A stretch of DNA of 63,113 nucleotides, the filler included, from Stramenopiles sp. TOSAG23-3 (taxonomy: Eukaryota): NCBI GenBank assembly GCA_900128585.1. It is 5 parts of 5 records of this genome, joined end to end, with 100 filler letters (N's around TTAATTAATTAA, not from the genome) between each part and the next. Parts side by side here need not be neighbours in the genome. Positions count along the whole stretch, not along the records: positions 15,378 to 30,592 come from LT642530.1; 4 more parts are not named here. One strand, 5' to 3'. Under the pieces are notes generated by a model. It was not told where the DNA came from, made no database searches, and saw only the letters and a program-made list of their open reading frames with translations. The position numbers and the translations under genes were made by a program. Positions 21,245 to 55,167 of the stretch are shown piece by piece; positions within the stretch are counted from its first letter, which is position 1, and every line of letters starts with the position of its first letter.

Positions 21245-22273
21245 TTGAAACCCCACGAGAATTCTGTTTTGCATCTTTGCTTAGCAGGGATTCCATTGAA
21301 CCGTTTATTGAATGAAATCGAGGAAATGAAACATGTAGATTACTCGGGGTGTGCCACCCGCAGAAAACACATTATGCTTGCTATAAAGAATCATGACATG
21401 CATGCATTGCGGGCAATTGTAAAGGAGGGGGTGGTACTTAACAAACGCGATCGGCTGCGGCTTGAACCCAACCCTATCAAGTTGGAATACGGAGTAGCAA
21501 AAGAAGCATTGCAGTCGTATGTAGCAGGCGGCAAACTGGCAAAGCGCAATGGACTACTCGAAGCGGAAAATAAAACGCTGAAAGCAACGAATGAGGAATT
21601 ACAGAAGCAGTTATCAATGTTGTCTGCTCGCAATGCGGCCATGGCAAAGAAGGAAAAAAAGATAGAGAACGGTTATTTCCACCGTGTCGGCTTAGGAAAA
21701 CTACCCTTGGGTACCAAAGACGGGCGCAGAGAACAGCAGTTTGAGGTGAGTGTTCTGGAGCTAAAGACGGAAATTAGAAAGTTGGAGGGACAGTTGCAAG
21801 CACACAAACACCAGAACAGAGGGTTGATGTCTTTGCTTTCTGAAGAAAGGGAAAAATATTCGAAAATAGAGTTACAAAGCAAATTTGTGGAGAAGCAGTT
21901 GAAGTCAGAAGTCATCTCATTGAGAGAAGAGCAGGAATTAGACGCAAAGCGATTGCAGGATCATCGAGCACAACAGGCGAAATTGAAGACCTCGCATGAG
22001 GCAAGCCTTTTGGCAGAGGCGACTAGATTGCACGAGAAAAACAAGGGTCTGCTTGCGCTTGTTGCACTCCGCGAAGGCCGAGTCCAGCAGTTACAAGCCC
22101 AGAACGAACAATTAACGCATTTGCTTGCCGCAGCAAAAGTTGAATTGAAAGATACGAGGGAAGTTGAGCAGCTCAAAGCCCAAATTAACATCAGCAAAGC
22201 AATGGGTGCGATGCAGGCGGCAATGGAAGGCAGTGGGTTGGGGGATCGGCTGAACATTTTCCCTGATATTTAA
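21245..22273 (+). CDS. Coiled-coil protein, unknown function (start uncertain; first in-frame ATG 21326)
   Basis: 342-codon ORF rich in E/K/Q/L heptads. Confidence 0.7.
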   Translation: MKPHENSVLHLCLAGIPLNRLLNEIEEMKHVDYSGCATRRKHIMLAIKNHDMHALRAIVKEGVVLNKRDRLRLEPNPIKLEYGVAKEALQSYVAGGKLAKRNGLLEAENKTLKATNEELQKQLSMLSARNAAMAKKEKKIENGYFHRVGLGKLPLGTKDGRREQQFEVSVLELKTEIRKLEGQLQAHKHQNRGLMSLLSEEREKYSKIELQSKFVEKQLKSEVISLREEQELDAKRLQDHRAQQAKLKTSHEASLLAEATRLHEKNKGLLALVALREGRVQQLQAQNEQLTHLLAAAKVELKDTREVEQLKAQINISKAMGAMQAAMEGSGLGDRLNIFPDI

Positions 22274-22487
22274 GATGTGACAACAGCGTGTTGCCGGGTG
22301 CCAGCCAGAGTTGTACCGGTCTCGTAAAGCGCGAAAATGAAAAAAACATATAAAAAAAAACTAATGATAAAAAAATATACGTGTAATTTTTACGAAAAGT
22401 AGAATTTAGAGTGTACATACTTTTAATCGTAAAACTGCGGTACCGAAACCTTCCAAATGCCCAGTCCCCCCTTCGTTTTACCCCAAT

Positions 22488-23492
22488 TTACTCTGGGTCC
22501 CCCACGCCACCTTCCATGAGCATGAATTCCGCTTCACTTTCCGCAATCATGGGCGAATCAATAACTTTACAGATGCGATTGTCGCCACGCCCTTTGCGCA
22601 ATTTTAAACGGGTGGTGGATGCATGGGCAATGATGTTCCCCCCGATCGCTTTGTTGTTATCTTTGACGAACATTGCAGCGCCTCCCGGGTCGGCGGTGAC
22701 TTGGTTGGTGATGACTACTGCGACGCCATAAGTCGATGCAAGCATGGTCAGTTGCCTCAAAAACTGTGCCAGTTTCTGCTGCCTTTCGGCCAGTTCGCCC
22801 CTGCCTGTGAAATCAGTACGGAACAATGCCGTCGCACTATCTATGACCAACAGCGCGTACCTGCTTTCGGACATCATCGCCGCGGCATGCTTTAAAAGCT
22901 CCATTTGATGCTCCGAGTTGTACGCGCGCGCATAGGCAACGTTGTCCAAGACGTCGTCAGGGTTCATGCCGAACCGTTCGGCAATCTTTTTTAACTTTTC
23001 TGGACGAAAGCAGCCCTCGGTGTCGATGTAAAGGGCTTTTCCCTCACCTCCCCCTTGGTCTACTGGGAGCTGTGCGGTCACGCACAGGGTGTGGCAGATT
23101 TGTGATTTCCCGGTTCGAAACTCCCCGTAGAGCTCAGTTATCGACCCGGTCTCCATTCCTCCCTGGAGCAATTCGTCCAAGTTTTTGCTTCCAGTGCTAA
23201 GTGTAATTAACGACTCGCGCTGCACGGCCAGCTCCGTGGCCGTCGTGAACCCCATGGGAATGAGCTTTTTCGCTTCGTTCAGTATTTTCGTCGCCTTCCC
23301 TTCGCTGATACCTTTCAAGTCGCAAAGCTGCTTCATCGTTGCGTACGCCACGGCTTCAACGGTGTGAAAACCGCCCTCTTTTAGTTTGTTCACGTCGCTG
23401 TTGTTGATTCCACAGGACTCGAGCCGGGCAACTTCCAGTGGCCCAAACTCCTCCTCGCCCTCTTGCATCATTTGTTGTGCTTGAGCCGCCAT
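22488..23492 (-). CDS. RAD51: RAD51 recombinase with DMC1-type L1/L2 loops
   Basis: RAD51-type [65 protein letters not shown]. Walker A GEFRTGKS. Confidence 0.93.
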
Positions 23493-24505
23493 ATTGAACG
23501 ATGTGTACGCTTTCCTCTATATTATTCGTTTGGTAGAAAAACCAACAGTAGATATTTTCGTTGGCAATAGAGTGGAAGGCGCTAACCTTTCATCTTGATT
23601 ATCATTTTATCGTGGTGCAACACTGAGCATTGAGTACTAGACTTCTAGTAGATTAACCGACCTTCTTTCTTCTGAATTTGACGCACTTCTTCTTCATCAA
23701 TTTTTAAACGACGATGAATTCAATTTTTATTTACAACATTATATTAATATAGACATAGTATATAAAAAAGAAATCATGTACAACAACAATGATGGCAGAA
23801 TTCATATTTTTTTGGAAGGACGTTTCTTTCAGTATTTTTTTCCACTTCTTTCTAATCGAAGAGAGTTACGCGGGAAACGACAAGGTCCATTTTATAAAAC
23901 AGAATACATATGCATACCATTGGATTTGTATCATAGTAGCAACAGAGCACACTGTTTTATTTTATACTTAGTAGAAACTATAGAATACAAATAATTATCC
24001 TATAATATCGAATAAAGAATCAGAAGAAAAGAAAAGGAATGGATGTTATTTCGATGTTGTTTTATTAATATCTTTTCGTAAAAAAATAAGATGAACACAC
24101 GAAGAAGAAGAAAGAAAGTGAAAAAAAAAGACAACAAAAAAGAAGGATTTTTCCCCCCCAAAAAATATTTTATAAGCAGAACACAACATCATCATGGACG
24201 GAAGAAAGAAGAAGAAGAAGAAGAAGAAGGAAGAAAAAGAGAAAAAAAAGAAGAAGGAAGGAGATCTAGAAAGAAAGAAAGAATCTTCGTCAAAATCTTC
24301 TTTGTGTAATTTTAAATGTGGTTTTGATTCTTCTATTGGGTTCTTTGTTCAACCTTCTTTCACCAACAGTCTGAATCGATTCGTGGTCCAGGTTCACCAA
24401 AACGATCGAAAAAAAAAATAAGAACCCAACGAAATTACAACTATTATACGCCAAGAAACAGGTATAATATTTTGCACGCCACCGCCACCACCACCACACC
24501 ACACG

Positions 24506-31839: not shown

Positions 31840-34800
31840 TCAGACTTGGGTGGCTTCTGATGCAATATTGCGCGCCGCAACTGCGTATTTAGGCATTTGT
31901 ATACTTCCAAACTCATTTTTAACATTTTTCCGCCATTTAATTTCTTCCGGGTCCAAACGCACCCATTTTGTTGGCGAGCGCGGGTATTTCTCTCTATCAT
32001 ACGCAATTTTGACTTGTTTGCCCGTGCAGTGTTTTCCGACAATGGTTGCGTTGCGCCACTGATACAGCTTTCTGTAATGCTCATGATCCGTAAATTTATG
32101 TCGCACCGAAACTCGCATTCCTATTTTCGCTTTTGTGGGAGATTCCCCAGACTCTTCCCACTCGACTTCGACGACCTTTTCTGTTTTTTCGAAACAACAT
32201 ATATACAATGCACGCGCCGTCTCTTTTATGTGCGCACTCAAGGCAATGCCCACCCCTACCAAAGATCCGAGAATGTACCACTTCGACAGTTTCAATCGAA
32301 GTCCGTGCCAAGCCCTACCGAGCCAGCGCCCGGTATCATGACAGCATGTGCGGCACGATAATGGGTGTTCTTTAGTCTCAATTTCAACGTTGCCTACCGA
32401 CAAATCTAAATGAACTTTGCACACATGTTCTATTATCTTATTGTTTTCTGCAAAGCGAATAGATCCATAAAGGCGTTTCAGCGCGCCTGTACTGTATGCA
32501 TCAACGCTGAAATTAAGCACGTGGTGCATCGCGGGAAAGCCAAGGCTTTGTTGGATGGATACGATACTGCTGTTGTAGACTTTCCCGCACGGGATATCTA
32601 AGATTTTCCCAACTACGTGGGCGGCGGGAGATATGCACGACACACGCACATCCATTGATGCACCGTCCCCGGTTCGAAACGATCGATGCAGCGTGTGTGT
32701 CTTGTTATCCGACAGTGCACGCAAGAGATCGTACTTCCCGTTTGTCGGCAATGGTAAGGCTGCTATGTTTTTCCGGCTCTCATAACAGTTTCGCAGTCCA
32801 TCTCCCGCTTGACTGAGGGAAAACCGAAACGAAGGGGAATTTTCTACACGACCACAATTAGGTTGAACACACCCGGCCGACCCAACAAACGATACATAGA
32901 CATATGCATTTTCGACATCATATATAGAAGAAAACCTGAACGTGGGCAAGAGATCACACCTGTTTGTCGAGACCCACGTAGGTCGCCGTGCAAAATGACG
33001 AGCATTCAAGATGCAGACGTCCGCACGCTTATAGAGTACCCGTTTGCCTTTCCAAAGTATATCTGTCCGCTTCGTATTGAGTGGTAACCATATTGCAATG
33101 CGCACAATTTGTTCTTGGCGAAACCTTAAGCGTTTCTGCACGATTTTCAAAATGTCGATTTGGACTGGGTTTGAATCCGTGGCTACCCCAAGTTCCGAGT
33201 AAGGGTGGCATGGTCGGTTCCAAGGCGCCAAAGGAGGAGCGCTAGGTAACGGGTGAGCGGAAGAACGCAGCCCATTTAAATTTATCTTTCCCAGCATTGT
33301 TCTCCTTTGCTTGCAACAATAGAACATAGTACGCCAGTTTCCGCCCGAACCGGGGGGTCGAACGTGAGACCCATGTTTTAACGCCCGCATAAGGTGGTAA
33401 AGCCAGTGCAAAACTATGATGCATAAAATTCCACCAGCAGCAATTCCCGCAGAAAGAGGGTGTTCGGCGGTTTTCCAACAACTGTCTGGCGGTACGAACG
33501 GAGGTTGCGGTGGAACAATCTCCGGGAGGCCTTGGCAGCGAACGACCAACGTGTCGATTGCCATGTCCGAGGTCGATCCGTGAATAATTCCCGTAATTCT
33601 CAGTTGCGTAGGCAACGGGGTTTTGTTTTTCAATAGCCTCAAAGAAGTTCTGTTCCACTCAAATCCTTTGTTTCCATGACTTTCAAAAATGCGAACCCAT
33701 GATTCTCCACCAAACCCATTCGTGGCGTTGCATGATATATTTCGTTGATCAACTAGCATACTCCCCATTCCTGTAACGGGGTTGCTCCCACCACGCATGT
33801 GAAACGATAAATCAAAATAGCAAGTGTCATCTTGGGCTGACGAAAGGGTGAACCATGGCGAGTAGACATATGCTTTGTCTCCCCAATTTAAGAAATATAG
33901 GTCTGATTTGATGTACAAGTATTTTACGCTTTCGATCAAACCCAATCCATAGTCCGCGAAAAGCGGACCCGTTCCCCGAGTTTCGGTTTCACCTTCATTT
34001 ATCGTCCAATTAGTTGCCCCGCCGTAGCTTTGCCATCTGCACATCGAATTTCCCTCAAAATCACAATTTACAGAGCTCAGAGGCGTCAATGATGTGTTTA
34101 CGTCACATGGTGAAGGCCGGCGGAGCAGATGCCTCCGCCGTCGAGAGCCGGTGGGCGATGCCATATCATCAGTTTCAATAGTTGTAACGTTCGCGGTTGT
34201 GTTTTGATATGCGGAATGTGAACGTATCTCGTTTGTACTACGGTGTTGGACAAATTCGTAAGATACAACGGCGACAGTGCAAAGCATTAAATATGCCACA
34301 AATCGCATTGTGACCCATAATCGTCGCCGTTGAACACAACAACATACATTTAAATCTTTGCACACGACAAAACACAAATGGAGCAGGAGGATGGCTAAAT
34401 TGATTCTTGTCGCGTGGCCAGGACTCGAAATGCCCAGTCCGACAGAAGAGATGCACAGCGCGTACCGTAATAAGAACTCCGAACTGTGACTCATTAAACT
34501 AAAATGGGACATTTCGGATTCATACATGGCCCTCCGAGAACCCAATTGACCTTTATTCCGCGCGATGGATATGCGGTTGTAAACGAATTCGTGAAGACGA
34601 AGGACAAAAAACCATAATGGTATTATAGTAGCCGCTGCGATGAATACTAGTGAAAGCACAAGTCGACTCAATACAGCCACCGTTGTATGCAGCGGTGCCC
34701 CACATGTGATCGTTAAACCCATCCAAAAATTGCAGCTATTGCAGCGCATGGATGTCTCAAGAGTTACCATAATCGGGACAAGGAACAAGTCGCAGAGGAG

Positions 34801-37524
34801 CAAAGTGTTCGAAAGCTGCTTTGTGTCATGGACGTCCTCCAGTATTGTATCTGTAGCTTGCTCTTTTTCGCTTGCTTTTTCAATTCCATAGCACATTTTA
34901 CCACTCCAGTGCTCCAATATTCGCAGCAATTTTAAATGCAGCCTATCGCGTTCTTGTTGGTATTTGATGACGGTGTTCGCTAAGTCCCGTCGCCACTGCG
35001 ATTGCTTCCGCAATCGACGCATAGTTGCTTTGTCGTGCATCTGATGCAGGCGCTTTTCAACTTTGATTCGCATGTTTAGATTGTGCAACGCTCTTTGTGC
35101 ATACGCTCTTAGAATGAACCCTGCAGTCGAAAGCCACTCGGGATGCTTGTCGTACAGCACTTTTTCCACGACTCGAACTAGTTGGAACAATAGCACAGCC
35201 GCAAGTACAATGGCAGCCCATAACTTTGCACCAGCGTAGGTAACCGTGCCAAGGTCCACAAAGAAGAAACATGAGCTGAGGAGTGACGGCACTGCAAACC
35301 CAGAGGAATAGTTTGGAAGAAGTGGCATTATCAGCAGCCCCACACATTGCCAATATATATGAACATGAAACACGGCGGTGTGCCACTTCGTTGCCGAGCT
35401 ATCTCCGGCACCATCGCAGCTGTACAACGTGCTGTTTCCATGTTGAAGCACTGGTATAGTATCATTTGGGGATGGAATGGAATCGCTGTTTTTCGTTGCG
35501 TAGTCCACAAAATATGCCAAAACGACGTTGTCACACGCCGCCGCTCCGTCCGACCCGTCAACAATTCTTTTTGCCGCAGGTTTCTGTGCGCCTACAGTAT
35601 CAAAAAATCTAGACAAGACTTCCATATCAACTTCACCACGGGTGCTTACCAAGTGCAGTCTGAATTGTTCCCTTAACGCCGAGAACTCTCCTGCAAACCA
35701 TTTCATTGCCGTCACAGAAACGCATTGGGCAACACAACTTTTTGATAAATCCCCTAAGGCGGCGGTAAAATCGGGACAGAATATAGTCTGCATCATTTCT
35801 TCTATGCGTTTGTTCTTGGCGTTCAGAATTGCCTCCACGAGAGAGTTAATGCACTCTTCGAATTCATCATTTTCTTCCCTTGCAGCCATGCTATGTTTGG
35901 CGGCAAGACGCAGGCGGGTAACGTATTTTGACACCGTGGTAATCGCTACATTCGGCAATTCTTGTTGAAACAGGGCGCGCATTTCGCCAAACAGTGTCTT
36001 TGGGATATTCAACAATGGGCACAGTTCCTCCCATAGTACTAGGTCCGACATATGTTTTACCACAGCAGGTTTGTCAAGCAGCACATGTACCTTCTTTGGC
36101 CGTTTATAAATTGTTGGCGGGTCCAAGTCTGTCCTTCCTCTAACGTATTTATTGGCATGGGACCAGCCCACAGCTACGTAAGCCAGCCTTGTCAACAAAT
36201 TGGTTGTATACTCTAAGATAGTATTTTCAATGTTTTTGTTTTGGATAGCATTTACCTGGGTAACAAAAAATGCCTTTGAAATCAGGTCAACGTGTCGTTT
36301 AAGACGAAACGGGTTGTTCAAGTTGTCACCTTTTTTATGAATTCCCAACCGCCATATCTCCAGGTGGTTTTCCAGCATTGACTCGGGTTCATGTAATGCT
36401 TTTACTCTTCCAAAGTACCCTCTTTGGAGGCAATGTATTCGACGAACCAACCGGTTCAGAGCCGCGTGAAACGACAAACGAAACGTTTCTAGTGCCACCG
36501 AGTCGCACTTTATGCCGTCTTTTGATTTCAGAAAAATGTATAGGAAGCGTTTCATATCGTTTCTGGGTTTGAATGGGGCAAAATCAGACGAAACAAATTT
36601 CATCCCGATTGAATCTCTGCCTTCGTAGTAAAATACTTCTTTCCACACCAAACAGTACAGTTCAACCCGATTTGGAAAAAGTTTTACGACCAGGAAATCA
36701 GGTATTGGAATCACGGGGGCGGAAAGAGTAACATCTATCGCATTTGCAACATACGCCATTCCGCGAAGCGTGCAGTAGGACGCCACCAGAGTAAACGTAT
36801 GGAAAATGTACCATTTCATTGAGGCCGCTCCCAGTCGAGATCCTATCCCAGTACTAAAGGCAAATAGGAAGCTGAGCAGCCCCATGTACATGTGAAGTTT
36901 TGTATCCGTAAAAATGTACTCTGTGTTTCCCACTATTAAATCTCGGCAAATTTTAGCCCTGCCCCTCCTTCCTCTCGGCCAATGTTGAATGTTTGGTAGT
37001 GGCAAAAGCCCCCACAGACCGTGCGTTGGCAAGCATGAAATGCGATTCAACCCGCCCACCGGCACCGTGAAAAAGTACTGCCCCATATTTTGGGCGCACC
37101 ATTGACGAACCATTGTTTTTGTGAACCAAATGGATTTTGACTTCGTATTGTCCACAAGGTTCTCTTCGAAACCCAGCGCAATCGTCGCTGGGTCGTACGC
37201 CGGGAGTTTCGACACAATATAAGCAAAGTTAATTCTATTTTCTTTTTCTGTATCTATGTACGCCTTCGGGGCCCAAGCAAACAGTGATTTGACTGTATTT
37301 TCTACCCGCCGTGAATAAACCTCTTCTCTGACTAATTGGTTGCTTTCCTCCGTCCGATGACCGTGCTTCCCTGTTTCAGGATCTGATTCCATCATTATTT
37401 GCCCCATAAGCGTTTCTTCTTGCTTAGAAGCCATAGTATCCACGTCGACGTGCGTTTCCGATGTCGCACATTCATTCAGAACCTTTTCCATTAGTGCTTC
37501 ATCGCTTTCCTCTACACCAGACAT
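31840..37524 (-). CDS. About 1890-aa multi-pass membrane protein with a MAM domain and a C-terminal Tudor/Agenet-like motif
   Basis: MAM: CDFEGNSMCRW...GTGP...FHMRG...MGSM...GNKGFEW...DMAIDTLVV. Many TM segments. C-terminal IGMRVSV...WRNATIV...VKIAYD. Confidence 0.8.
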   Translation of the reverse strand: MSGVEESDEALMEKVLNECATSETHVDVDTMASKQEETLMGQIMMESDPETGKHGHRTEESNQLVREEVYSRRVENTVKSLFAWAPKAYIDTEKENRINFAYIVSKLPAYDPATIALGFEENLVDNTKSKSIWFTKTMVRQWCAQNMGQYFFTVPVGGLNRISCLPTHGLWGLLPLPNIQHWPRGRRGRAKICRDLIVGNTEYIFTDTKLHMYMGLLSFLFAFSTGIGSRLGAASMKWYIFHTFTLVASYCTLRGMAYVANAIDVTLSAPVIPIPDFLVVKLFPNRVELYCLVWKEVFYYEGRDSIGMKFVSSDFAPFKPRNDMKRFLYIFLKSKDGIKCDSVALETFRLSFHAALNRLVRRIHCLQRGYFGRVKALHEPESMLENHLEIWRLGIHKKGDNLNNPFRLKRHVDLISKAFFVTQVNAIQNKNIENTILEYTTNLLTRLAYVAVGWSHANKYVRGRTDLDPPTIYKRPKKVHVLLDKPAVVKHMSDLVLWEELCPLLNIPKTLFGEMRALFQQELPNVAITTVSKYVTRLRLAAKHSMAAREENDEFEECINSLVEAILNAKNKRIEEMMQTIFCPDFTAALGDLSKSCVAQCVSVTAMKWFAGEFSALREQFRLHLVSTRGEVDMEVLSRFFDTVGAQKPAAKRIVDGSDGAAACDNVVLAYFVDYATKNSDSIPSPNDTIPVLQHGNSTLYSCDGAGDSSATKWHTAVFHVHIYWQCVGLLIMPLLPNYSSGFAVPSLLSSCFFFVDLGTVTYAGAKLWAAIVLAAVLLFQLVRVVEKVLYDKHPEWLSTAGFILRAYAQRALHNLNMRIKVEKRLHQMHDKATMRRLRKQSQWRRDLANTVIKYQQERDRLHLKLLRILEHWSGKMCYGIEKASEKEQATDTILEDVHDTKQLSNTLLLCDLFLVPIMVTLETSMRCNSCNFWMGLTITCGAPLHTTVAVLSRLVLSLVFIAAATIIPLWFFVLRLHEFVYNRISIARNKGQLGSRRAMYESEMSHFSLMSHSSEFLLRYALCISSVGLGISSPGHATRINLAILLLHLCFVVCKDLNVCCCVQRRRLWVTMRFVAYLMLCTVAVVSYEFVQHRSTNEIRSHSAYQNTTANVTTIETDDMASPTGSRRRRHLLRRPSPCDVNTSLTPLSSVNCDFEGNSMCRWQSYGGATNWTINEGETETRGTGPLFADYGLGLIESVKYLYIKSDLYFLNWGDKAYVYSPWFTLSSAQDDTCYFDLSFHMRGGSNPVTGMGSMLVDQRNISCNATNGFGGESWVRIFESHGNKGFEWNRTSLRLLKNKTPLPTQLRITGIIHGSTSDMAIDTLVVRCQGLPEIVPPQPPFVPPDSCWKTAEHPLSAGIAAGGILCIIVLHWLYHLMRALKHGSHVRPPGSGGNWRTMFYCCKQRRTMLGKINLNGLRSSAHPLPSAPPLAPWNRPCHPYSELGVATDSNPVQIDILKIVQKRLRFRQEQIVRIAIWLPLNTKRTDILWKGKRVLYKRADVCILNARHFARRPTWVSTNRCDLLPTFRFSSIYDVENAYVYVSFVGSAGCVQPNCGRVENSPSFRFSLSQAGDGLRNCYESRKNIAALPLPTNGKYDLLRALSDNKTHTLHRSFRTGDGASMDVRVSCISPAAHVVGKILDIPCGKVYNSSIVSIQQSLGFPAMHHVLNFSVDAYSTGALKRLYGSIRFAENNKIIEHVCKVHLDLSVGNVEIETKEHPLSCRTCCHDTGRWLGRAWHGLRLKLSKWYILGSLVGVGIALSAHIKETARALYICCFEKTEKVVEVEWEESGESPTKAKIGMRVSVRHKFTDHEHYRKLYQWRNATIVGKHCTGKQVKIAYDREKYPRSPTKWVRLDPEEIKWRKNVKNEFGSIQMPKYAVAARNIASEATQV

Positions 37525-41066: not shown

Positions 41067-41392
41067 TTTATTTTATTATATTAATGCTATTTTAACGGTA
41101 TTCACTCACTCTTCAATCATTTGTTTTCAAACCGATGTTGTGTGTTGTGTGTTAAAAGTTTTTGTTATAATAATAATGTAGTGGTGTACTATATATTATT
41201 ATTATAATATACTACAACAGCAAAAAATAAAAAGAAGAAAGAAAAATGTAAATGTGCGGAAGAAAGGTAATTCATGATAAATTAAGAAAAGAGATTTAAT
41301 AAGGGATATAAATGAATAGGACGAGAAATAGAGAGAGAGAAAGAGAGAGGAAGAGAGGGAATTGGAAGGTATTATTTTATATAGAAGGTCTA

Positions 41393-44300
41393 ATGTATAG
41401 AGGCGGAAAGAAGGGTTCGCTCCGAGTTGATGTTGGGGATGGGAATTCCTCAACAACGTCACGGCCATCAAGTGCAATGCCGCGGTCAGAGCGTAGACTG
41501 TTGGAGGCGGAGCGGGTGAGGACACTGATGAGGAAAACTAGGGAATTAAGGCCCAAGTCTGCGCTGCTGCATAATAATAGACAGGCAAGCATGATTAGTA
41601 AGTACAAGAAAGAGATGGACGAGGAGTACTCGGCCCTGTACAAAAAGATTGGGCAATTGCCGGAGCATGGGAAACGTAATGGAATACTGAAGAAGATCCG
41701 AGTGTCGACCACGTCCCCGTTCCACCACTCCCGCGACGATTTCGAGAAAGAGTCCATGTTTACCGTCGACCCGCTCACGTACTACGCACCAAAGTACACC
41801 ATACGGTACGGGGAAAAGTACGATGAAAAATATTTGTACCCGCCAATCGAAGACCCATCAAAGGACGAGAAGAAGAAAGAGCAGGCCGCAGCACGGTCGA
41901 GGCGCAGCAGGCCCGTGAAAATGTTCCGGTCGAGGTCTGCATTCTACGAACGGAGAAAAGCCATTCGTAGCCGGCCCAAAGATCTGCACCGTCGATCGTC
42001 CGTGTCCTTAACAGTAAAGGAGCCAGGGATGGAGGCCCCTGGCCCTAGCTCGGAAGGCGACGAAAAGGCGCACTTGGACCCGAAGCGGTTCAAAGGCACA
42101 AATGCAAGGCAACAGTTCTATCGAACGGCAAAGCAACAAACTATGGAAATCAACGACGCAGTCTTCCAAGGGCGCAAATGGATAAAAAAGAAACTTGCGG
42201 CGGTCGTAGACGAGAAGATGAAAGAGGATATGAAAGAGTACCTTCGGGAAACGCTCCCTGCCACGTTCAACTGGGTTTATATGTCCACCGAAAACCAGAT
42301 CGACTACTTGATGGAAACATTGACAGATGAGAAGGAAGCAGAGCGCCATTTCAAAGAGCGCCTTCGAAAATCGAAAGAGCGCCTTCAGAAAACGAAAGAG
42401 CGCCTTCGAAAAACGCTCCCTGCCCCGTTCAACTCGGTCGACATGCCCGCAGAAGACCAGATCGACTACTTGATGGCAACCTCGACAGAGGATTTCACGA
42501 AGGACACACACAACATGTACGTGAAAATTGACGGCCGGGGGGAGCACGGGAACTTAAAAGCCGAATGTGAGCAGCCGCTGCGCGATTTAAAGTGGCAGGA
42601 AGCGTGCCCCCAGGCCAATTATATCACAGAACTGATGGGCCAGAACATAAACCCAGAAGCAACTTTCATCAAGAAGCAGAAATCTCACGCGATCGGAAAG
42701 TTGAACATGACGCATTTTTCCCTGGGCGATGAGCGTACCAGTGCGGTCACAACCCTGGCGTCCAAGTTGGAGTTTGTAAAGCACATACAGCTCCGAAACA
42801 ATCGCATGACGACCGAAAGCTTGGGGTCGACGTTTGCGTCCCTGAAAGAGGCGAAGCACGTTAACAGTATCGAAAGCTTGGACCTGAGCATGAATAAGTT
42901 TACACGGCTATCCTCGTCGCAAGCGTTAGGGTCACTTCTCAAGCAAGGTATGGCATCCCTGGTGCGTTTGTCGATCGAGCACGCGGGCTTACGGGATGCA
43001 CACGCGAAGGCAATTCTGTCTGCAATGGAGGGGTCGTGCAAAGCGTTGCGGGTATTGAACATGTCGAGCAATTTCCTCTCCCATCACTCTGCCATCGCGC
43101 TTGCAAAGCTGTTACGCAAGCAACGATTCGTTGTGCTGGACGTTAGCGACAACATGATATCAGGGGCAGGCGGTATCGTGCTCTGCAACGCGCTGGCGAA
43201 GAACCGAACGCTGCAGAAACTGAACGTGGAGGGAAATGGGCTCGGACGACCAGTGGCCCTCAAGACAGTCAACCGGTCCCTTGTGGGTTGGGACGAAGGA
43301 AAAGTGGCGGAACGAATTTTTGACGAGCAAGGCTTGGAGCACCAGGCGTCCCCAGCCGACTTTCTGGCGCTTTCGCTGGTGGACAACGATTCCTTGATGG
43401 TGCTGGACATTTCCCGGAACCAGATTGGGCCGAGTACGGTATTCTGCTTCACTCAGGCCTTGGTTGTGAACAAGGCCTTGCATGTCTTCAAGGTGAACGG
43501 CAACTCCCTTTTGGAGGCAGGAACGCGTGCCTTGATTCGAGCCGTTGAGCACGGGGTTGCAGTGCAGCATATTCAAACTGAGAACTGCAAAATCATGGGA
43601 GACGATGGCGGGGCGGACGTGTTTGACCCCTTGCACCCTGTTCATAACTTTCCAAGCACTTCCAATCCAGTGTTGAACATGAAAGTGCCGTACCACTACT
43701 TTATTGCCTGTGCCCTCGTGCGCATGGCGGAAGATTACCCTGGGTTCCAGTTCACCAAACTGCAACATCTTGAACCGGGTGCCCCGGTCACTTCCCAGGG
43801 CACAGAGATCCAGCTGACCAGACGCCCGGTAGACAGCAACAAACAGAACCTGAAGGCGTACAAGAAAATGTTTCGGCACATATCGGCGAAGCGCAACCCA
43901 GGCCAATCGTCATTTAAAAACATCCACAAATCATGGATAACGTACGACGACACAAAGGCTATAATTCGAAAGGCCCACGAAATGCGGCACGAAGACGTGT
44001 GCGACAGGTACCTGAATGCGTTTCTAGACGAAGCGGACGCGGACAACGACGGTCAGATAACATGGGACGAGTTCCGGGCTGGGGTATGTGCGGGCAGAAA
44101 CATGTTTGGTATTGGCGCTCAGAAACGCGGCGAGCCCCTTCCAGGGGTGATGTGCGCGTCGGGACGCCGCGTGGCATGGACCGTTCCGCGGAAAGGAACC
44201 CTGAAACTCTCGGCCAAGTGTTTGCCTTCTGTCATACCATCCTGGCGATGCTGCACGGAGTACTCGTTTCGCCAGATACTAAAGCTCGCCAAGTCCACCA

Positions 44301-45889
44301 ACAACCTGGAGTTGACGTCGCAGATCATTCATTTGTCCACCCGCGACATATTTTACCGCACCGAGCAGGCGGCACTTTTGCTTGATCTGCTCATAGAGGC
44401 TCATGGAAAGGGTGGGGCCGAAAAGTACGGAGACGTCTTCCTTTCGGTAGTGGACAAAGAAAATAACCCCGCCATGTTGGAGCATGTCTTGCCCGTTCCT
44501 TTGCAACAAGCCGTTGTCAAAGACCTTGGACCACTCTTCCCGTTAGCAATGGGCATTTATAACGGGAAGTACGCCCTCAATTTGGCGGACTCACATCGCG
44601 ATCGCCGGGCCGCGTTGACGCTGCTGCAGCGCCAGGCGCACGAAAATGGTCTGATTCTAAACTTCACATACCCTTCCAAGGGGCAGTCGTTGATCGATAC
44701 GTCTCAATTAATGAACGGGTACTTGTGCATGCGGAACGTTACCTGGGCTGGCGTGGTGATAGTGAGAGATAAGCCAGGAGCCGGGGCCGGGAAAGAGACC
44801 GTCTCCGAAGAAATAGACATTGATGTTGCCAAGTACTATAGTTCGGTGCCATTGGAGACCAACGGGATCATGCGGTTCGACTTTGTCGAGGCGATAGGCC
44901 CAGACCCGAAACTGTCTTCCATGTCGAGATTGCAGTTTTACCGCTTTTGTAGGGACACCGTTTTGCCGATTATAAAACCGATCTCCGGTTACCGGTTCGT
45001 GCAGACGCACGACACCCGCCGACTTTGGGACAGCCGCGCAATGGACGGATCGCCGGACATAGCGCCCGCTGTGACTCACGCGGCCACAGAGAAACCAGTA
45101 CGTCTAGTGTCCCCAACGGAGCACCTGGCGGCCACAGCAATACAATCTATGTTTCGCTGCCGCCTGGCAAACAACGAGCGAGCGCGGCGTTTGTTACAGC
45201 GAAATGCAGGGACCTGCATGGTTGCGATTTTAGAACATCAAGTCATTCTCCTCCAAAAGAATATTAGAAGGTACTTGGCAAAGAAGTTTGTTCGCGATTT
45301 GCAGGAGGCGCGCCGGCTGGGCATTCTAGGTTCACTGCCGCCACCATTCCTGCGGGAAGACCACATCTACATGCTATGGTACTGCTGCCCTACCCTGCGT
45401 CGAGGTGCTGACGATCGGGCAGACTCATTCTTTGAAGAGGAAGATGACCAGGCCTCGGCAAGTGTAGACTCCGAAGCAAAGGTTCACTTTCAAAAAAACA
45501 CTCAGCACGCGAGTCTTACGGAAAAACTGTCCCCACACCAGATGGCGTCGTATTTTTATTTTTGTAGGCGAGTTGACTTACACCCCGGGGACGATCCCCA
45601 GCCTTTAAACGACTGGGTAGGTCGGTGTAGAGACATGCCCCAAAGGGTTGCTTTGAAAAACGAAACGGAGCTTATAGTGGTCCAGGAAGCACTGTTTTAC
45701 CTGTCTTCGAAGTTGGCCAACAAAGTGTTGACCGCACAGCAGTGCCGAACGATAGCGGCCTTGCTCCCCCATGGATGGATGTCAGGGACATCCTTACGGG
45801 TGTCCCTACTGACCCAGTTGTTTTCAAGGTGCATTGACCCAGGAAACTTTGAAACATCGGTCTTTCCCTTGCTCTTCGAGCGAGAACGG
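41393..45889 (+). CDS. RNI-like LRR protein with EF-hand and IQ motifs, 3'-truncated by contig end
   Basis: LRRs LDLSMN, LNMSSN, LDVSDN, LDISRN. EF-hand DADNDGQITWDEF. IQ-like AIQSMFRCRLA and LQKNIRRYLAKK. Confidence 0.85.
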
Positions 45890-45989
45890 NNNNNNNNNNN
45901 NNNNNNNNNNNNNNNNNNNNNNNNNNNNNNNNNTTAATTAATTAANNNNNNNNNNNNNNNNNNNNNNNNNNNNNNNNNNNNNNNNNNNN
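45890..45989. other. Artificial contig spacer
   Basis: N44-TTAATTAATTAA-N44. Confidence 0.98.

Positions 45990-54047: not shown

Positions 54048-55167
<1,120 letters not shown>

What the first reader, a model, noticed from the sequence alone, without database searches (positions are those of the whole stretch)
22488..23492. RAD51 backbone carrying DMC1-identical DNA-binding loops: candidate hybrid mismatch-tolerant recombinase
Seen: most diagnostic positions are RAD51-type ([61 protein letters not shown]). The L1 region reads [11 protein letters not shown] (ELAERQQKL at 22770-22796) and L2 reads TADPG (22683-22697). Established: human DMC1 has [11 protein letters not shown] and TADPG, whereas RAD51 has ELSARQMHLAR and VAQVDG. 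The DMC1 residues E241/Q244/K245 and P274/G275 are those implicated in tolerating mismatches during inter-homolog strand exchange. C. elegans, which lacks DMC1, has DMC1-like L1 residues in RAD-51, and diatoms are reported to lack DMC1. [10 protein letters not shown] and SEHQMELL are also DMC1-like. Inference: this lineage may use one hybrid recombinase, arisen by convergence or RAD51/DMC1 gene conversion, possibly replacing DMC1. That would hint at cryptic meiosis.
Basis: partly seen in the sequence, partly recalled or inferred. Interest (0 to 1): 0.8.

Follow-up and report, generated by a model that had tools for sequence, protein, structure and literature searches.

The report
RAD51 with DMC1-type DNA-binding loops
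This is the intact, expressed RAD51 DNA-repair recombinase of an uncultured marine stramenopile close to MAST-4, and its two DNA-contacting loops carry the residues that normally mark the meiotic recombinase DMC1, so it probably tolerates mismatches better than ordinary RAD51.

Summary
Window 22488-23492 (-) is an intronless 334-aa RAD51-family gene. L1 reads [11 protein letters not shown] and L2 reads VTADPG, as in DMC1; the rest is RAD51-like (human RAD51 483 bits, human DMC1 356 bits).

- The organism is not shown to be a diatom. A 90%-identical cluster holds a protein named MAST-4.
- Trees place the protein inside RAD51, beside labyrinthulomycete RAD51. Joining it to DMC1 on a fixed backbone is rejected (p-AU 0.028 to 5e-6).
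- No conversion tract is visible: RAD51-type residues lie between the loops, and RAD51 identity is at least DMC1 identity in all 15 sliding windows.
- Much of the DMC1 look is shared or ancestral. All named stramenopile RAD51s have Q and P at the key positions, including Blastocystis, which keeps DMC1. Archaeal RadA has RQQKL and PD.
- The full E/Q/K + P/G set occurs in 13 of 167 scorable RAD51 clusters, all 74-100% identical to this protein.

Independent DNA and RNA contigs rule out a chimeric assembly. Published mutants predict a mismatch-tolerant, crossover-prone RAD51. Whether it replaces DMC1 could not be tested, because no genome is held. A 2026 preprint already reports PD-to-PG changes in Rad51.

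The parts
22488..23492 (-). RAD51 coding sequence, 334 codons plus stop, no intron
   Evidence: ORF list and translation. Pfam Rad51 PF08423 scores 415 bits over residues 91-333. DNA and RNA contigs lie on it with no joints and no differences.
23265..23411 (-). N-terminal helix-hairpin-helix domain (residues 28-76)
   Evidence: Pfam HHH_5 PF14520, 35.6 bits. Coordinates checked by translation.
23238..23249 (-). FTTA polymerisation motif (F82-A85; aligns with human RAD51 F86-A89)
   Evidence: Translation. It is identical to human RAD51 in the alignment. The name and role of the motif are from general knowledge of RAD51.
23103..23126 (-). Walker A motif, GEFRTGKS (residues 123-130)
   Evidence: Translation; alignment to human RAD51.
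22836..22853 (-). Walker B motif, LLVIDS (residues 214-219)
   Evidence: Translation; alignment to human RAD51.
22893..22916 (-). SEHQMELL (residues 193-200), identical to vertebrate DMC1; the SEHQM part is shared by most stramenopile RAD51s
   Evidence: E194 is one of the 5 DMC1-type diagnostic columns and is also the consensus of every stramenopile RAD51 group.
22764..22796 (-). Loop L1, [11 protein letters not shown] (residues 233-243). E236, Q239 and K240 correspond to human DMC1 E241, Q244 and K245, and to human RAD51 A240, M243 and H244.
   Evidence: Translation; alignments. Residue roles come from PMC6719624 and PMC7809202 (passages). The numbers E241 and K245 are my inference from the alignment offset.
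22683..22700 (-). Loop L2, VTADPG (residues 265-270). P269 and G270 correspond to human DMC1 P274 and G275, and to human RAD51 V273 and D274.
   Evidence: Translation; alignments. The best PDB match is 7C9A, which is RAD51-V273P/D274G.
22421..23551 (-). Stretch covered by contigs of RNA libraries; a likely transcript with short UTRs
   Evidence: Run X11: contigs 22421-22640 and 22614-23551, 0 differences. Run X18 (oligo-dT library): 22471-22908 and 22925-23304. Contigs show neither strand nor true ends, and DNA can be present in RNA libraries.

Best explanation
The gene is the RAD51 orthologue of a MAST-4-type marine heterotrophic stramenopile. It encodes a complete strand-exchange ATPase: HhH domain, FxxA polymerisation motif, Walker A and B motifs, and loops L1 and L2.

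Its loops carry all five residues that experiments identify as setting DMC1-type behaviour: E236, Q239 and K240 in L1, and P269 and G270 in L2.

The state was most likely reached by ordinary substitutions within the RAD51 lineage. Stramenopile RAD51s as a group have Q in L1 and P-D in L2, which resembles archaeal RadA. Relatives show AERQQ[NTL]LAQ with SPD (a group that includes the labyrinthulomycete Hondaea), and AERQQKLAQ with VTASPD. The MAST-4 clade adds S/N268D and D270G. D270G removes the L1-L2 salt bridge, in parallel with DMC1.

Predicted, not shown: filaments of this protein have DMC1's open 'triplet gate', stabilise mismatched heteroduplex and favour crossover over break-induced replication, while still serving as the cell's general repair recombinase.
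For: RAD51 identity:
- PDB search: human RAD51 483.5 bits, yeast Rad51 433, human DMC1 356.5, yeast Dmc1 348.
- Mean identity is 64.7% to 19 canonical RAD51 rows and 52.8% to 12 DMC1 rows. Phytophthora RAD51 gives the same figures, 64.7 and 53.0.
- Of 21 columns that separate RAD51 from DMC1, 14 are RAD51-type, 5 DMC1-type and 2 neither.
- 90-row tree: DMC1 clade 98*, RAD51 clade 96*, with the window's 9-row clade (100*) inside RAD51.
- After 35 residue columns around the loops were masked, the RAD51 clade (96*) still holds it, sister to a labyrinthulomycete-type group (support 86).
- On a fixed backbone, uniting it with DMC1 in either of two ways is rejected. Unmasked LG+F+G4: delta-lnL 36.8 and 43.8, p-AU 0.0087 and 0.0022. 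Masked LG+F+G4: 41.9 and 56.9, p-AU 0.0029 and 5e-6. Unmasked LG+C20+F+G4: 23.7 and 22.3, p-AU 0.028 and 0.021. Masked C20, first arrangement only: 25.3, p-AU 0.023.

Stepwise origin: the graded loop states in relatives.

Real and expressed: the stretch is held by 20 runs of 15 studies, 6 of them RNA. An independent DNA contig spans 22352-23327 and an RNA contig spans 22614-23551, each with 0 differences and no joints.

Constraint: the loops are invariant in 13 clusters that are 74-100% identical overall.

Function (from papers, not tested here): human RAD51 M243Q+V273P/D274G is reported as mismatch-tolerant as DMC1 (PMC7809202, passages). ScRad51 A298E, M301Q and H302K each contribute to mismatch stabilisation (PMC6719624, passages). 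Yeast rad51-PG raises crossovers to 11.7% from 3-5% (bioRxiv 10.1101/2025.02.19.639135, section 7).
Against: - No biochemistry exists for this protein. Loop effects depend on context: ScRad51-H302K and the full L1 swap were defective in vivo, and yeast rad51-PG halved survival.
- treekit's constrained search on the unmasked 66-row alignment found a tree with the window's clade plus DMC1 together that scored 8.25 lnL above the quick free tree (p-AU 0.70). In that tree all of DMC1 nests inside RAD51 and the root falls among stramenopile RAD51s. This tree is not rejected on unmasked data under LG+F+G4 (p-AU 0.26). It is rejected with the loops masked under LG+F+G4 (p-AU 0.021) but not under C20 (p-AU 0.21). 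The deep rooting is therefore soft.
- An excess of DMC1-ward changes on the clade's stem is not statistically supported: 14 clade-specific substitutions, 3 toward a DMC1-majority state, Fisher test of loops against the rest p = 0.40.
- Retention and reversal of the ancestral L1 cannot be told apart with these trees.
- The 90 and 66 tree rows were chosen by hand from about 470 proteins.
Confidence: 0.72

Rival explanations
1. Single-recombinase replacement. The MAST-4 clade has lost DMC1, and its RAD51 loops were selected toward the DMC1 state so that one enzyme serves both repair and meiotic inter-homologue exchange, as proposed for Caenorhabditis RAD-51.
For: The full E/Q/K + P/G set is confined to this clade, 13 of 167 scorable clusters, and is invariant within it. 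C. elegans is a published precedent in which loss of DMC1 goes with Dmc1-like L1 residues (PMC6719624, passages). DMC1 loss occurs within stramenopiles, in diatoms (PMC4647503, passages).
Against: Presence or absence of DMC1 in this lineage could not be examined, because no genome is held. The DMC1 profile search listed only its best 120 hits, none of them stramenopile, which says nothing either way. The partial DMC1-like state (Q and P) is also found in Blastocystis, which is reported to keep Dmc1, Hop2 and Mnd1, so loop state does not track DMC1 loss in general. The test for an excess of DMC1-ward substitutions was not significant.
Confidence: 0.2
2. Micro gene conversion. Two short tracts, L1 and L2, were copied from a resident DMC1 paralogue into RAD51.
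For: L1 (11 of 11 residues) and TADPG are identical to vertebrate DMC1, and SEHQMELL matches as well. Including the loop columns lowers the cost of placing the clade next to DMC1.
Against: RAD51-type residues lie within and between the supposed tracts: T226, F244, R246, G256. No 40-aa window is closer to DMC1: 14 of 15 favour RAD51 and one is a tie at -0.01. Relatives show graded intermediate states. SEHQM and RQQ..LAQ are present across stramenopile RAD51s. No donor sequence is available for a nucleotide-level test.
Confidence: 0.05
3. The gene is the lineage's DMC1 orthologue, and it only looks like RAD51.
For: DMC1-type L1 and L2, plus A140, E194 and F228. One constrained topology that unites it with DMC1 is not rejected on unmasked data.
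Against: 14 of 21 diagnostic columns are RAD51-type. It scores 483 bits against RAD51 and 356 against DMC1. Placing it as sister to DMC1 is rejected in all 7 fixed-backbone comparisons of that arrangement (p-AU 0.028 to 3e-5). The unrejected tree requires all eukaryotic DMC1 to nest inside RAD51.
Confidence: 0.02
4. Assembly chimera of two paralogues.
For: None found.
Against: Contigs from independent runs bridge the loops together with their RAD51-type flanks, each with 0 differences: DNA run X4 22352-23327, RNA run X11 22614-23551, RNA run X18 22471-22908. The same architecture recurs in 13 clusters from several sources.
Confidence: 0.01

Closest known systems
Canonical eukaryotic RAD51 (human RAD51, e.g. 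PDB 5JZC; yeast Rad51)
   Same: Gapless alignment over residues 11-333 at 483.5 bits. Same domain order, Walker A and B motifs, FTTA motif and [13 protein letters not shown] stretch. Falls in the RAD51 clade.
   Different: L1 has E236, Q239, K240 and Q243 where human RAD51 has A, M, H and R. L2 has T266, D268, P269 and G270 where human RAD51 has V, Q, V and D. The V273-L238 contact and the D274-R235 salt bridge described for RAD51 cannot form.
DMC1 (human DMC1, PDB 7C98; mammalian P0418)
   Same: L1 [12 protein letters not shown]2 TADPG and SEHQMELL are identical. These include Q244, P274 and G275, the residues reported to govern fidelity.
   Different: 356.5 bits against 483.5 for RAD51. 14 of 21 diagnostic columns are RAD51-type. 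It lies outside the DMC1 clade. It lacks DMC1's M244/S246/K250/N256-type residues after L1 and V226 before it.
Engineered human RAD51-V273P/D274G (PDB 7C9A) and the RAD51-M243Q/V273P/D274G triple mutant (Luo et al. 2021, PMC7809202)
   Same: 7C9A is the single best PDB match, 490.8 bits. The window protein is a natural RAD51 with the same three changes. The triple mutant is reported as mismatch-tolerant as DMC1 (passages).
   Different: This protein is natural, conserved across a clade, and has the E and K of L1 in addition. No assay has been done on it.
Caenorhabditis elegans RAD-51 (Steinfeld et al. 2019, PMC6719624)
   Same: A RAD51 orthologue with Dmc1-like L1 residues that stabilises mismatches (passages).
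   Different: For C. elegans the passages I read describe L1 only; no worm sequence was fetched, so its L2 was not compared. C. elegans is known to lack DMC1, whereas that is unknown for this lineage.
Other stramenopile RAD51s: Phytophthora and other oomycetes, Blastocystis, and a cluster that includes Hondaea fermentalgiana
   Same: They share Q239, P269, E194 (SEHQM) and ..LAQ/LAK. They group together when the loops are masked (32-row clade, support 89).
   Different: They keep D at position 270 (PD or PE), and position 236 or 240 differs: AARQQELAK, S[NT]RQQ[SN]LAQ, AERQQ[NTL]LAQ.
Archaeal RadA, and the reconstructed ancestral eukaryotic recombinase of Ferlez et al. (bioRxiv 10.1101/2025.02.19.639135)
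   Same: The 8 RadA rows read [AEVDST]RQQ[KRT][LI] in L1 and mostly P-D in L2. The preprint infers PD for the Rad51 ancestor, with independent changes to VD, PE or PG (sections 5, 6, 12).
   Different: RadA lacks the RAD51-type core residues. The preprint's text names no stramenopile (0 occurrences). The species behind its PG tips appear only in figures and supplements that I could not see.

Membership tests
RAD51 (eukaryotic RecA-family recombinase, RAD51 orthologue group) | Full-length Rad51 ATPase core plus the N-terminal HhH domain | tested here: met
   PF08423 covers profile positions 1-244 of 244 at 415 bits. PF14520 covers residues 28-76.
RAD51 (eukaryotic RecA-family recombinase, RAD51 orthologue group) | Walker A, Walker B and FxxA polymerisation motifs intact | tested here: met
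   [14 protein letters not shown] and FTTA are read directly from the sequence and align with human RAD51.
RAD51 (eukaryotic RecA-family recombinase, RAD51 orthologue group) | Falls in the RAD51 clade and not the DMC1 clade | tested here: met
   (RAD51 clade 96* in both). Fixed-backbone AU tests reject union with DMC1. Caveat: one constrained tree, with DMC1 nested inside RAD51, is not rejected on unmasked data.
RAD51 (eukaryotic RecA-family recombinase, RAD51 orthologue group) | Canonical RAD51 lineage-specific loop residues (M243, V273, D274 in human numbering) | tested here: not met
   Q239, P269 and G270 stand there instead. These residues mark 'canonical' RAD51 rather than orthology: 62 of 167 scorable RAD51-type clusters have Q + P.
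DMC1 (meiotic recombinase) | DMC1 lineage-specific L1 and L2 residues (E241, Q244, K245, P274, G275) | tested here: met
   E236, Q239, K240, P269 and G270.
DMC1 (meiotic recombinase) | Falls in the DMC1 clade | tested here: not met
   It lies outside the DMC1 clade (98*; 89). Placement as sister to DMC1 is rejected (p-AU 0.028 to 3e-5).
DMC1 (meiotic recombinase) | DMC1-type residues at diagnostic columns outside the loops | tested here: not met
   Of 21 diagnostic columns, 14 are RAD51-type. Only E194 and F228 are DMC1-type outside L1 and L2.
DMC1 (meiotic recombinase) | Meiosis-specific expression and dependence on HOP2-MND1 | not testable with these tools
   The organism is uncultured and no genome is held. 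Contigs in RNA libraries show presence only.

The most novel reading that the evidence does not exclude
The MAST-4 clade, among the most abundant uncultured heterotrophic flagellates of the surface ocean (recalled, not from a call), has no DMC1 and uses one RAD51 for both repair and meiotic inter-homologue recombination. The loops of that RAD51 have been driven all the way to the DMC1 state. It would be the first natural RAD51 known to carry both the L1 and the L2 fidelity determinants, and it would be indirect evidence for sex in a lineage where none has been seen.
Probability: 0.2. Interest if true: 0.75.

Novelty: new variant of a known kind. Interest (0 to 1): 0.45.

Why it matters
Why most eukaryotes keep two nearly identical recombinases is an open question. 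Current answers rest on engineered loop swaps in yeast and human proteins and on one natural case, C. elegans, which the passages I read describe for L1 only.

This clade offers a natural, conserved RAD51 that carries the complete DMC1 loop set on an otherwise RAD51 body. Its relatives show graded intermediate loop states. Together they form a ready-made series for in vitro tests of how L1 and L2 set fidelity and crossover bias.

If DMC1 proves absent from these genomes, this would be a second, independent case of RAD51 taking over the DMC1 role. It would also hint at sex in an ecologically important uncultured protist.

If DMC1 is present, the case shows that DMC1-type loops are compatible with the general repair role. 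That would weaken the idea that the loop residues by themselves define the division of labour between the two recombinases.

Tried and rejected
- Whole-genome search for DMC1, other RAD51 copies, HOP2, MND1 and SPO11: not possible, because no genome is held for this window.
- DMC1 profile search, meant to reveal a MAST-4 or other stramenopile DMC1: the 120 hits listed were plants, animals and a few protists. Only the best 120 of 6778 are shown, so nothing can be concluded.
- The 150 proteins listed by the representative search were mostly fragments or fusions. I used them only for DMC1 and RadA anchor rows.
- ESM Atlas: only generic RAD51 and RadA clusters.
- Earlier findings of this scan: nothing on this genome or this question.
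- Literature: 'MAST-4' plus 'meiosis' gave one paper, a classification review. 'MAST-4'/'meiosis'/'DMC1' and the stramenopile toolkit search gave nothing on MAST or on RAD51 loops. A search for DMC1 with labyrinthulomycete, oomycete or Blastocystis names listed no paper holding DMC1 among the 15 shown.
- Table 2 of PMC2488364 came through without column headers, so I could not read off Phytophthora Dmc1. That oomycetes keep DMC1 therefore remains recalled and unverified.
- The free IQ-TREE search under LG+F+G4 did not finish in two calls. I replaced it with fixed-backbone comparisons.
- The test for an excess of DMC1-ward substitutions on the clade's stem was not significant (p = 0.40).
- Taxid 87120, read from a truncated MMETSP label, resolved to a fungus and was discarded as a truncation artefact.
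- Parts of the stretch without RNA-contig cover (before 22421 and after 23551 in X11) are not taken as transcript ends.
- No structure was predicted, because the gapless alignment to solved RAD51 structures made it unnecessary.
Full report
**What is there**

Window 22488-23492 on the minus strand is one uninterrupted ORF of 334 codons with an ATG start. Pfam gives a full-length Rad51 core (PF08423, 415 bits, residues 91-333, profile 1-244 of 244) and an N-terminal HhH domain (residues 28-76).

The search of solved structures gives these scores:
- human RAD51: 483.5 bits, gapless over residues 11-333
- yeast Rad51: 433 bits
- human DMC1: 356.5 bits
- yeast Dmc1: 348 bits
- archaeal RadA: 279 bits or less

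The single best match, at 490.8 bits, is PDB 7C9A. Its paper identifies it as the engineered human RAD51-V273P/D274G (PMC7809202, data-availability passage).

It also confirms Walker A (GEFRTGKS), Walker B (LLVIDS) and the FTTA motif.

**The gene is not an assembly artefact**

The stretch is held by 20 public runs from 15 studies, 6 of them RNA libraries. I laid four of these runs on it:
- An independent DNA run gives a 976-nt contig over 22352-23327 with 0 differences.
- A metatranscriptome gives a 938-nt contig over 22614-23551 with 0 differences.
- An oligo-dT library gives 22471-22908 and 22925-23304.

There are no joints, so the gene has no intron and is not a junction of two paralogues. 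Contigs cannot show strand or level, and DNA can be present in RNA libraries. I therefore call expression likely, not proven.

**Whose gene it is**

No whole genome is held. The nearest clusters are unnamed environmental sequences. The cluster that is 90% identical contains a protein named 'Stramenopile-MAST_4_protein_2922'. Named relatives further out are Blastocystis and oomycete RAD51s. A cluster that holds 'RAD51-like A' of Hondaea fermentalgiana, a thraustochytrid labyrinthulomycete, is also related.

Nothing points to a diatom. Neighbouring ORFs are ordinary eukaryotic genes and none is meiotic: SHQ1, a PP1-type phosphatase, tubulin, a zinc dehydrogenase. I scanned 20 of the 27 ORFs of 220 aa or more.

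**RAD51 or DMC1?**

- 9 of the window's clade
- 4 with a DMC1-type L1 but PD in L2
- 25 other stramenopile-type rows
- 3 Blastocystis
- 4 oomycete
- 21 other RAD51
- 16 DMC1
- 8 RadA

The evidence for RAD51:
- The quick ML tree has a DMC1 clade (98*) and a RAD51 clade (96*). The RAD51 clade contains the window's clade (100*).
- 21 columns cleanly separate canonical RAD51 from DMC1. The window protein is RAD51-type at 14, DMC1-type at 5 (E194, F228, Q239, P269, G270) and neither at 2.
- In 15 sliding windows of 40 residues, identity to RAD51 exceeds identity to DMC1 in 14. The window over L1 (221-260) is a tie at -0.01.
- Overall identity is 64.7% to RAD51 and 52.8% to DMC1. Phytophthora RAD51 gives 64.7 and 53.0.
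- I masked 35 residue columns (190-198, 228, 232-244, 262-273) and dropped 24 rows for speed, leaving 66. The RAD51 clade (96*) still holds the window's clade. All stramenopile-type RAD51s now form one group (32 rows, support 89). The window's clade is sister to the labyrinthulomycete-type rows (support 86).

**A result against my reading, and what came of it**

treekit's clade test on the unmasked 66 rows did not reject holding the window's clade and DMC1 together. The constrained tree was 8.25 lnL better than the quick free tree (p-AU 0.70).

Inspection showed that this tree nests the whole DMC1 clade inside RAD51, next to the window's clade, with near-zero internal branches and with the RadA root among stramenopile RAD51s.

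I then compared trees that differ only in the one placement, on a fixed backbone:

| Alignment and model | Window's clade moved next to DMC1 | DMC1 moved next to window's clade |
|---|---|---|
| Unmasked, LG+F+G4 | delta-lnL 36.8, p-AU 0.0087 | delta-lnL 43.8, p-AU 0.0022 |
| Masked, LG+F+G4 | delta-lnL 41.9, p-AU 0.0029 | delta-lnL 56.9, p-AU 5e-6 |
| Unmasked, LG+C20+F+G4 | delta-lnL 23.7, p-AU 0.028 | delta-lnL 22.3, p-AU 0.021 |
| Masked, LG+C20+F+G4 | delta-lnL 25.3, p-AU 0.023 | not run |

The treekit constrained tree itself gave mixed results:
- Unmasked, LG+F+G4: not rejected (p-AU 0.26).
- Masked, LG+F+G4: rejected (p-AU 0.021).
- Masked, C20: not rejected (p-AU 0.21). There it is as poor (delta-lnL 26.8) as the free tree taken from the unmasked data (delta-lnL 25.0).

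My reading is that the protein is a RAD51. Whatever pull it has toward DMC1 sits in the loop columns. The deep rooting of RAD51 and DMC1 on this data set is soft.

**How unusual the loops are**

I examined 170 RAD51-type clusters from the two searches. 167 could be scored; 3 lacked a motif under my pattern. Among the 167:
- 84 have M in L1 with VD in L2 (canonical RAD51).
- 62 have Q in L1 with P in L2.
- 13 have the full E/Q/K + P/G set. All 13 belong to the window's clade, at 74-100% identity.

The Q + P state covers all 16 named stramenopile RAD51s:
- 13 oomycete: AARQQELAK and MTANPDS
- 3 Blastocystis: S[NT]RQQ[SN]LAQ and VVANPD

These also have SEHQ/SDHQ. Blastocystis is reported to encode Dmc1, Hop2 and Mnd1 (PMC5608401, passage). 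The partial state is therefore not a consequence of DMC1 loss.

Intermediate states exist in relatives:
- AERQQ[NTL]LAQ with SPD (the labyrinthulomycete-type group)
- AERQQKLAQ with VTASPD (4 clusters)
- one cluster (P0076) with an M-type L1 but ADPG in L2

The 8 archaeal RadA rows read ..RQQ[KRT][LI].. in L1 and mostly P-D in L2. DMC1's L1 is therefore close to the ancestral motif, and canonical RAD51 (RQMHL, VD) is the derived form.

This agrees with a 2026 preprint (bioRxiv 10.1101/2025.02.19.639135; sections 5, 6, 7, 12 and 26 read). It infers PD for the ancestors of both Rad51 and Dmc1. It also reports independent changes in Rad51 lineages to VD, PE or PG. Its text names no stramenopile. 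The species behind its PG tips appear only in figures and supplements that I could not see.

**Convergence or conversion?**

A conversion tract spanning L1 to L2 is excluded by the RAD51-type residues F244, R246 and G256 between the loops and T226 before them. Two micro-tracts cannot be excluded without the donor DNA.

Relative to a stramenopile consensus, the clade's stem carries only 14 fixed differences. Three go to a DMC1-majority state: C140A, Y228F and D270G. The excess in the loops is not significant (Fisher p = 0.40). Positions 240 and 268 were too variable in relatives to be scored.

The 'DMC1-identical' look is therefore a lineage-wide, ancestral-like background plus a few further steps. 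D270G, which removes the salt-bridge aspartate, is the clearest parallel with DMC1.

**Likely mechanism (inferred)**

The published evidence is:
- In human proteins, Q244 of DMC1 stabilises the DNA backbone, and P274/G275 open the 'triplet gate' that V273/D274 close in RAD51. RAD51-M243Q/V273P/D274G is reported as mismatch-tolerant as DMC1 (PMC7809202, passages).
- In yeast Rad51, A298E, M301Q and H302K each contribute to stabilising mismatched triplets (PMC6719624, passages).
- Yeast rad51-PG raises mitotic crossovers to 11.7% from 3-5%, and halves survival in an ectopic repair assay (preprint section 7).

The window protein has all five residues, on a body that keeps the RAD51-type residues elsewhere. 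I therefore predict a general repair recombinase with relaxed mismatch discrimination and a bias toward crossover outcomes.

Context effects are real. ScRad51-H302K and the whole-L1 swap were defective in vivo, so this needs an assay.

**What remains open**

The attractive idea that this RAD51 replaces DMC1, and so hints at cryptic sex in MAST-4, could not be tested: there is no genome, the DMC1 search was uninformative, and I found no paper on meiosis genes in MAST-4. I give it about 0.2.

**Verdict**

This is a natural variant of a known family with a clear, testable functional prediction. The surprise is tempered by the lineage-wide and ancestral nature of most of the 'DMC1-like' residues, and by a preprint that already frames PD-to-PG changes in Rad51.

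Noticed in passing
P0076 (unnamed JGI cluster; not in the window): A RAD51-clade protein with an M-type L1 (SERQMQLAQ) but a DMC1-type L2 (VVADPGG). It looks like a second, independent PD-to-PG change, uncoupled from the L1 glutamine.
   Followed up: partly
P0060, P0066, P0099, P0103 (unnamed clusters; not in the window): RAD51s whose L1 is identical to DMC1 (AERQQKLAQ) but whose L2 keeps the salt-bridge aspartate (VTASPDG). They are one step short of the window's state. Their organisms are unknown.
   Followed up: partly
window 21326-22273 (+): The 315-aa ORF next to RAD51, convergent with it, has no Pfam hit at 1e-5. Its translation is rich in E, K, L and Q, which looks like a coiled coil by eye.
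   Followed up: no
window 31840-37524 (-) and 41312-45937 (+): Two very long uninterrupted ORFs of 1894 aa and 1541 aa. The 1541-aa one has no Pfam family at 1e-5. The 1894-aa one was not scanned.
   Followed up: no
window 54048-54803 (+): A 251-aa ORF holds only the tubulin GTPase domain (PF00091, 211 bits), without the C-terminal domain in the same ORF. The gene is probably split by an intron or a frame change.
   Followed up: no
P0162 (2174 aa) and P0487 (Hondaea fermentalgiana, 666 aa): RAD51-type domains sit inside much longer predicted proteins. P0162 matches at residues 1866-2094 with 68% identity. These may be fusions or gene-model merges.
   Followed up: no
66-row RAD51/DMC1/RadA alignment: With the loop columns included, trees in which all of DMC1 nests inside RAD51 and the root falls among stramenopile RAD51s are about as likely as RAD51 monophyly. 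The shared ancestral-type loop states pull the two long branches toward these RAD51s.
   Followed up: partly
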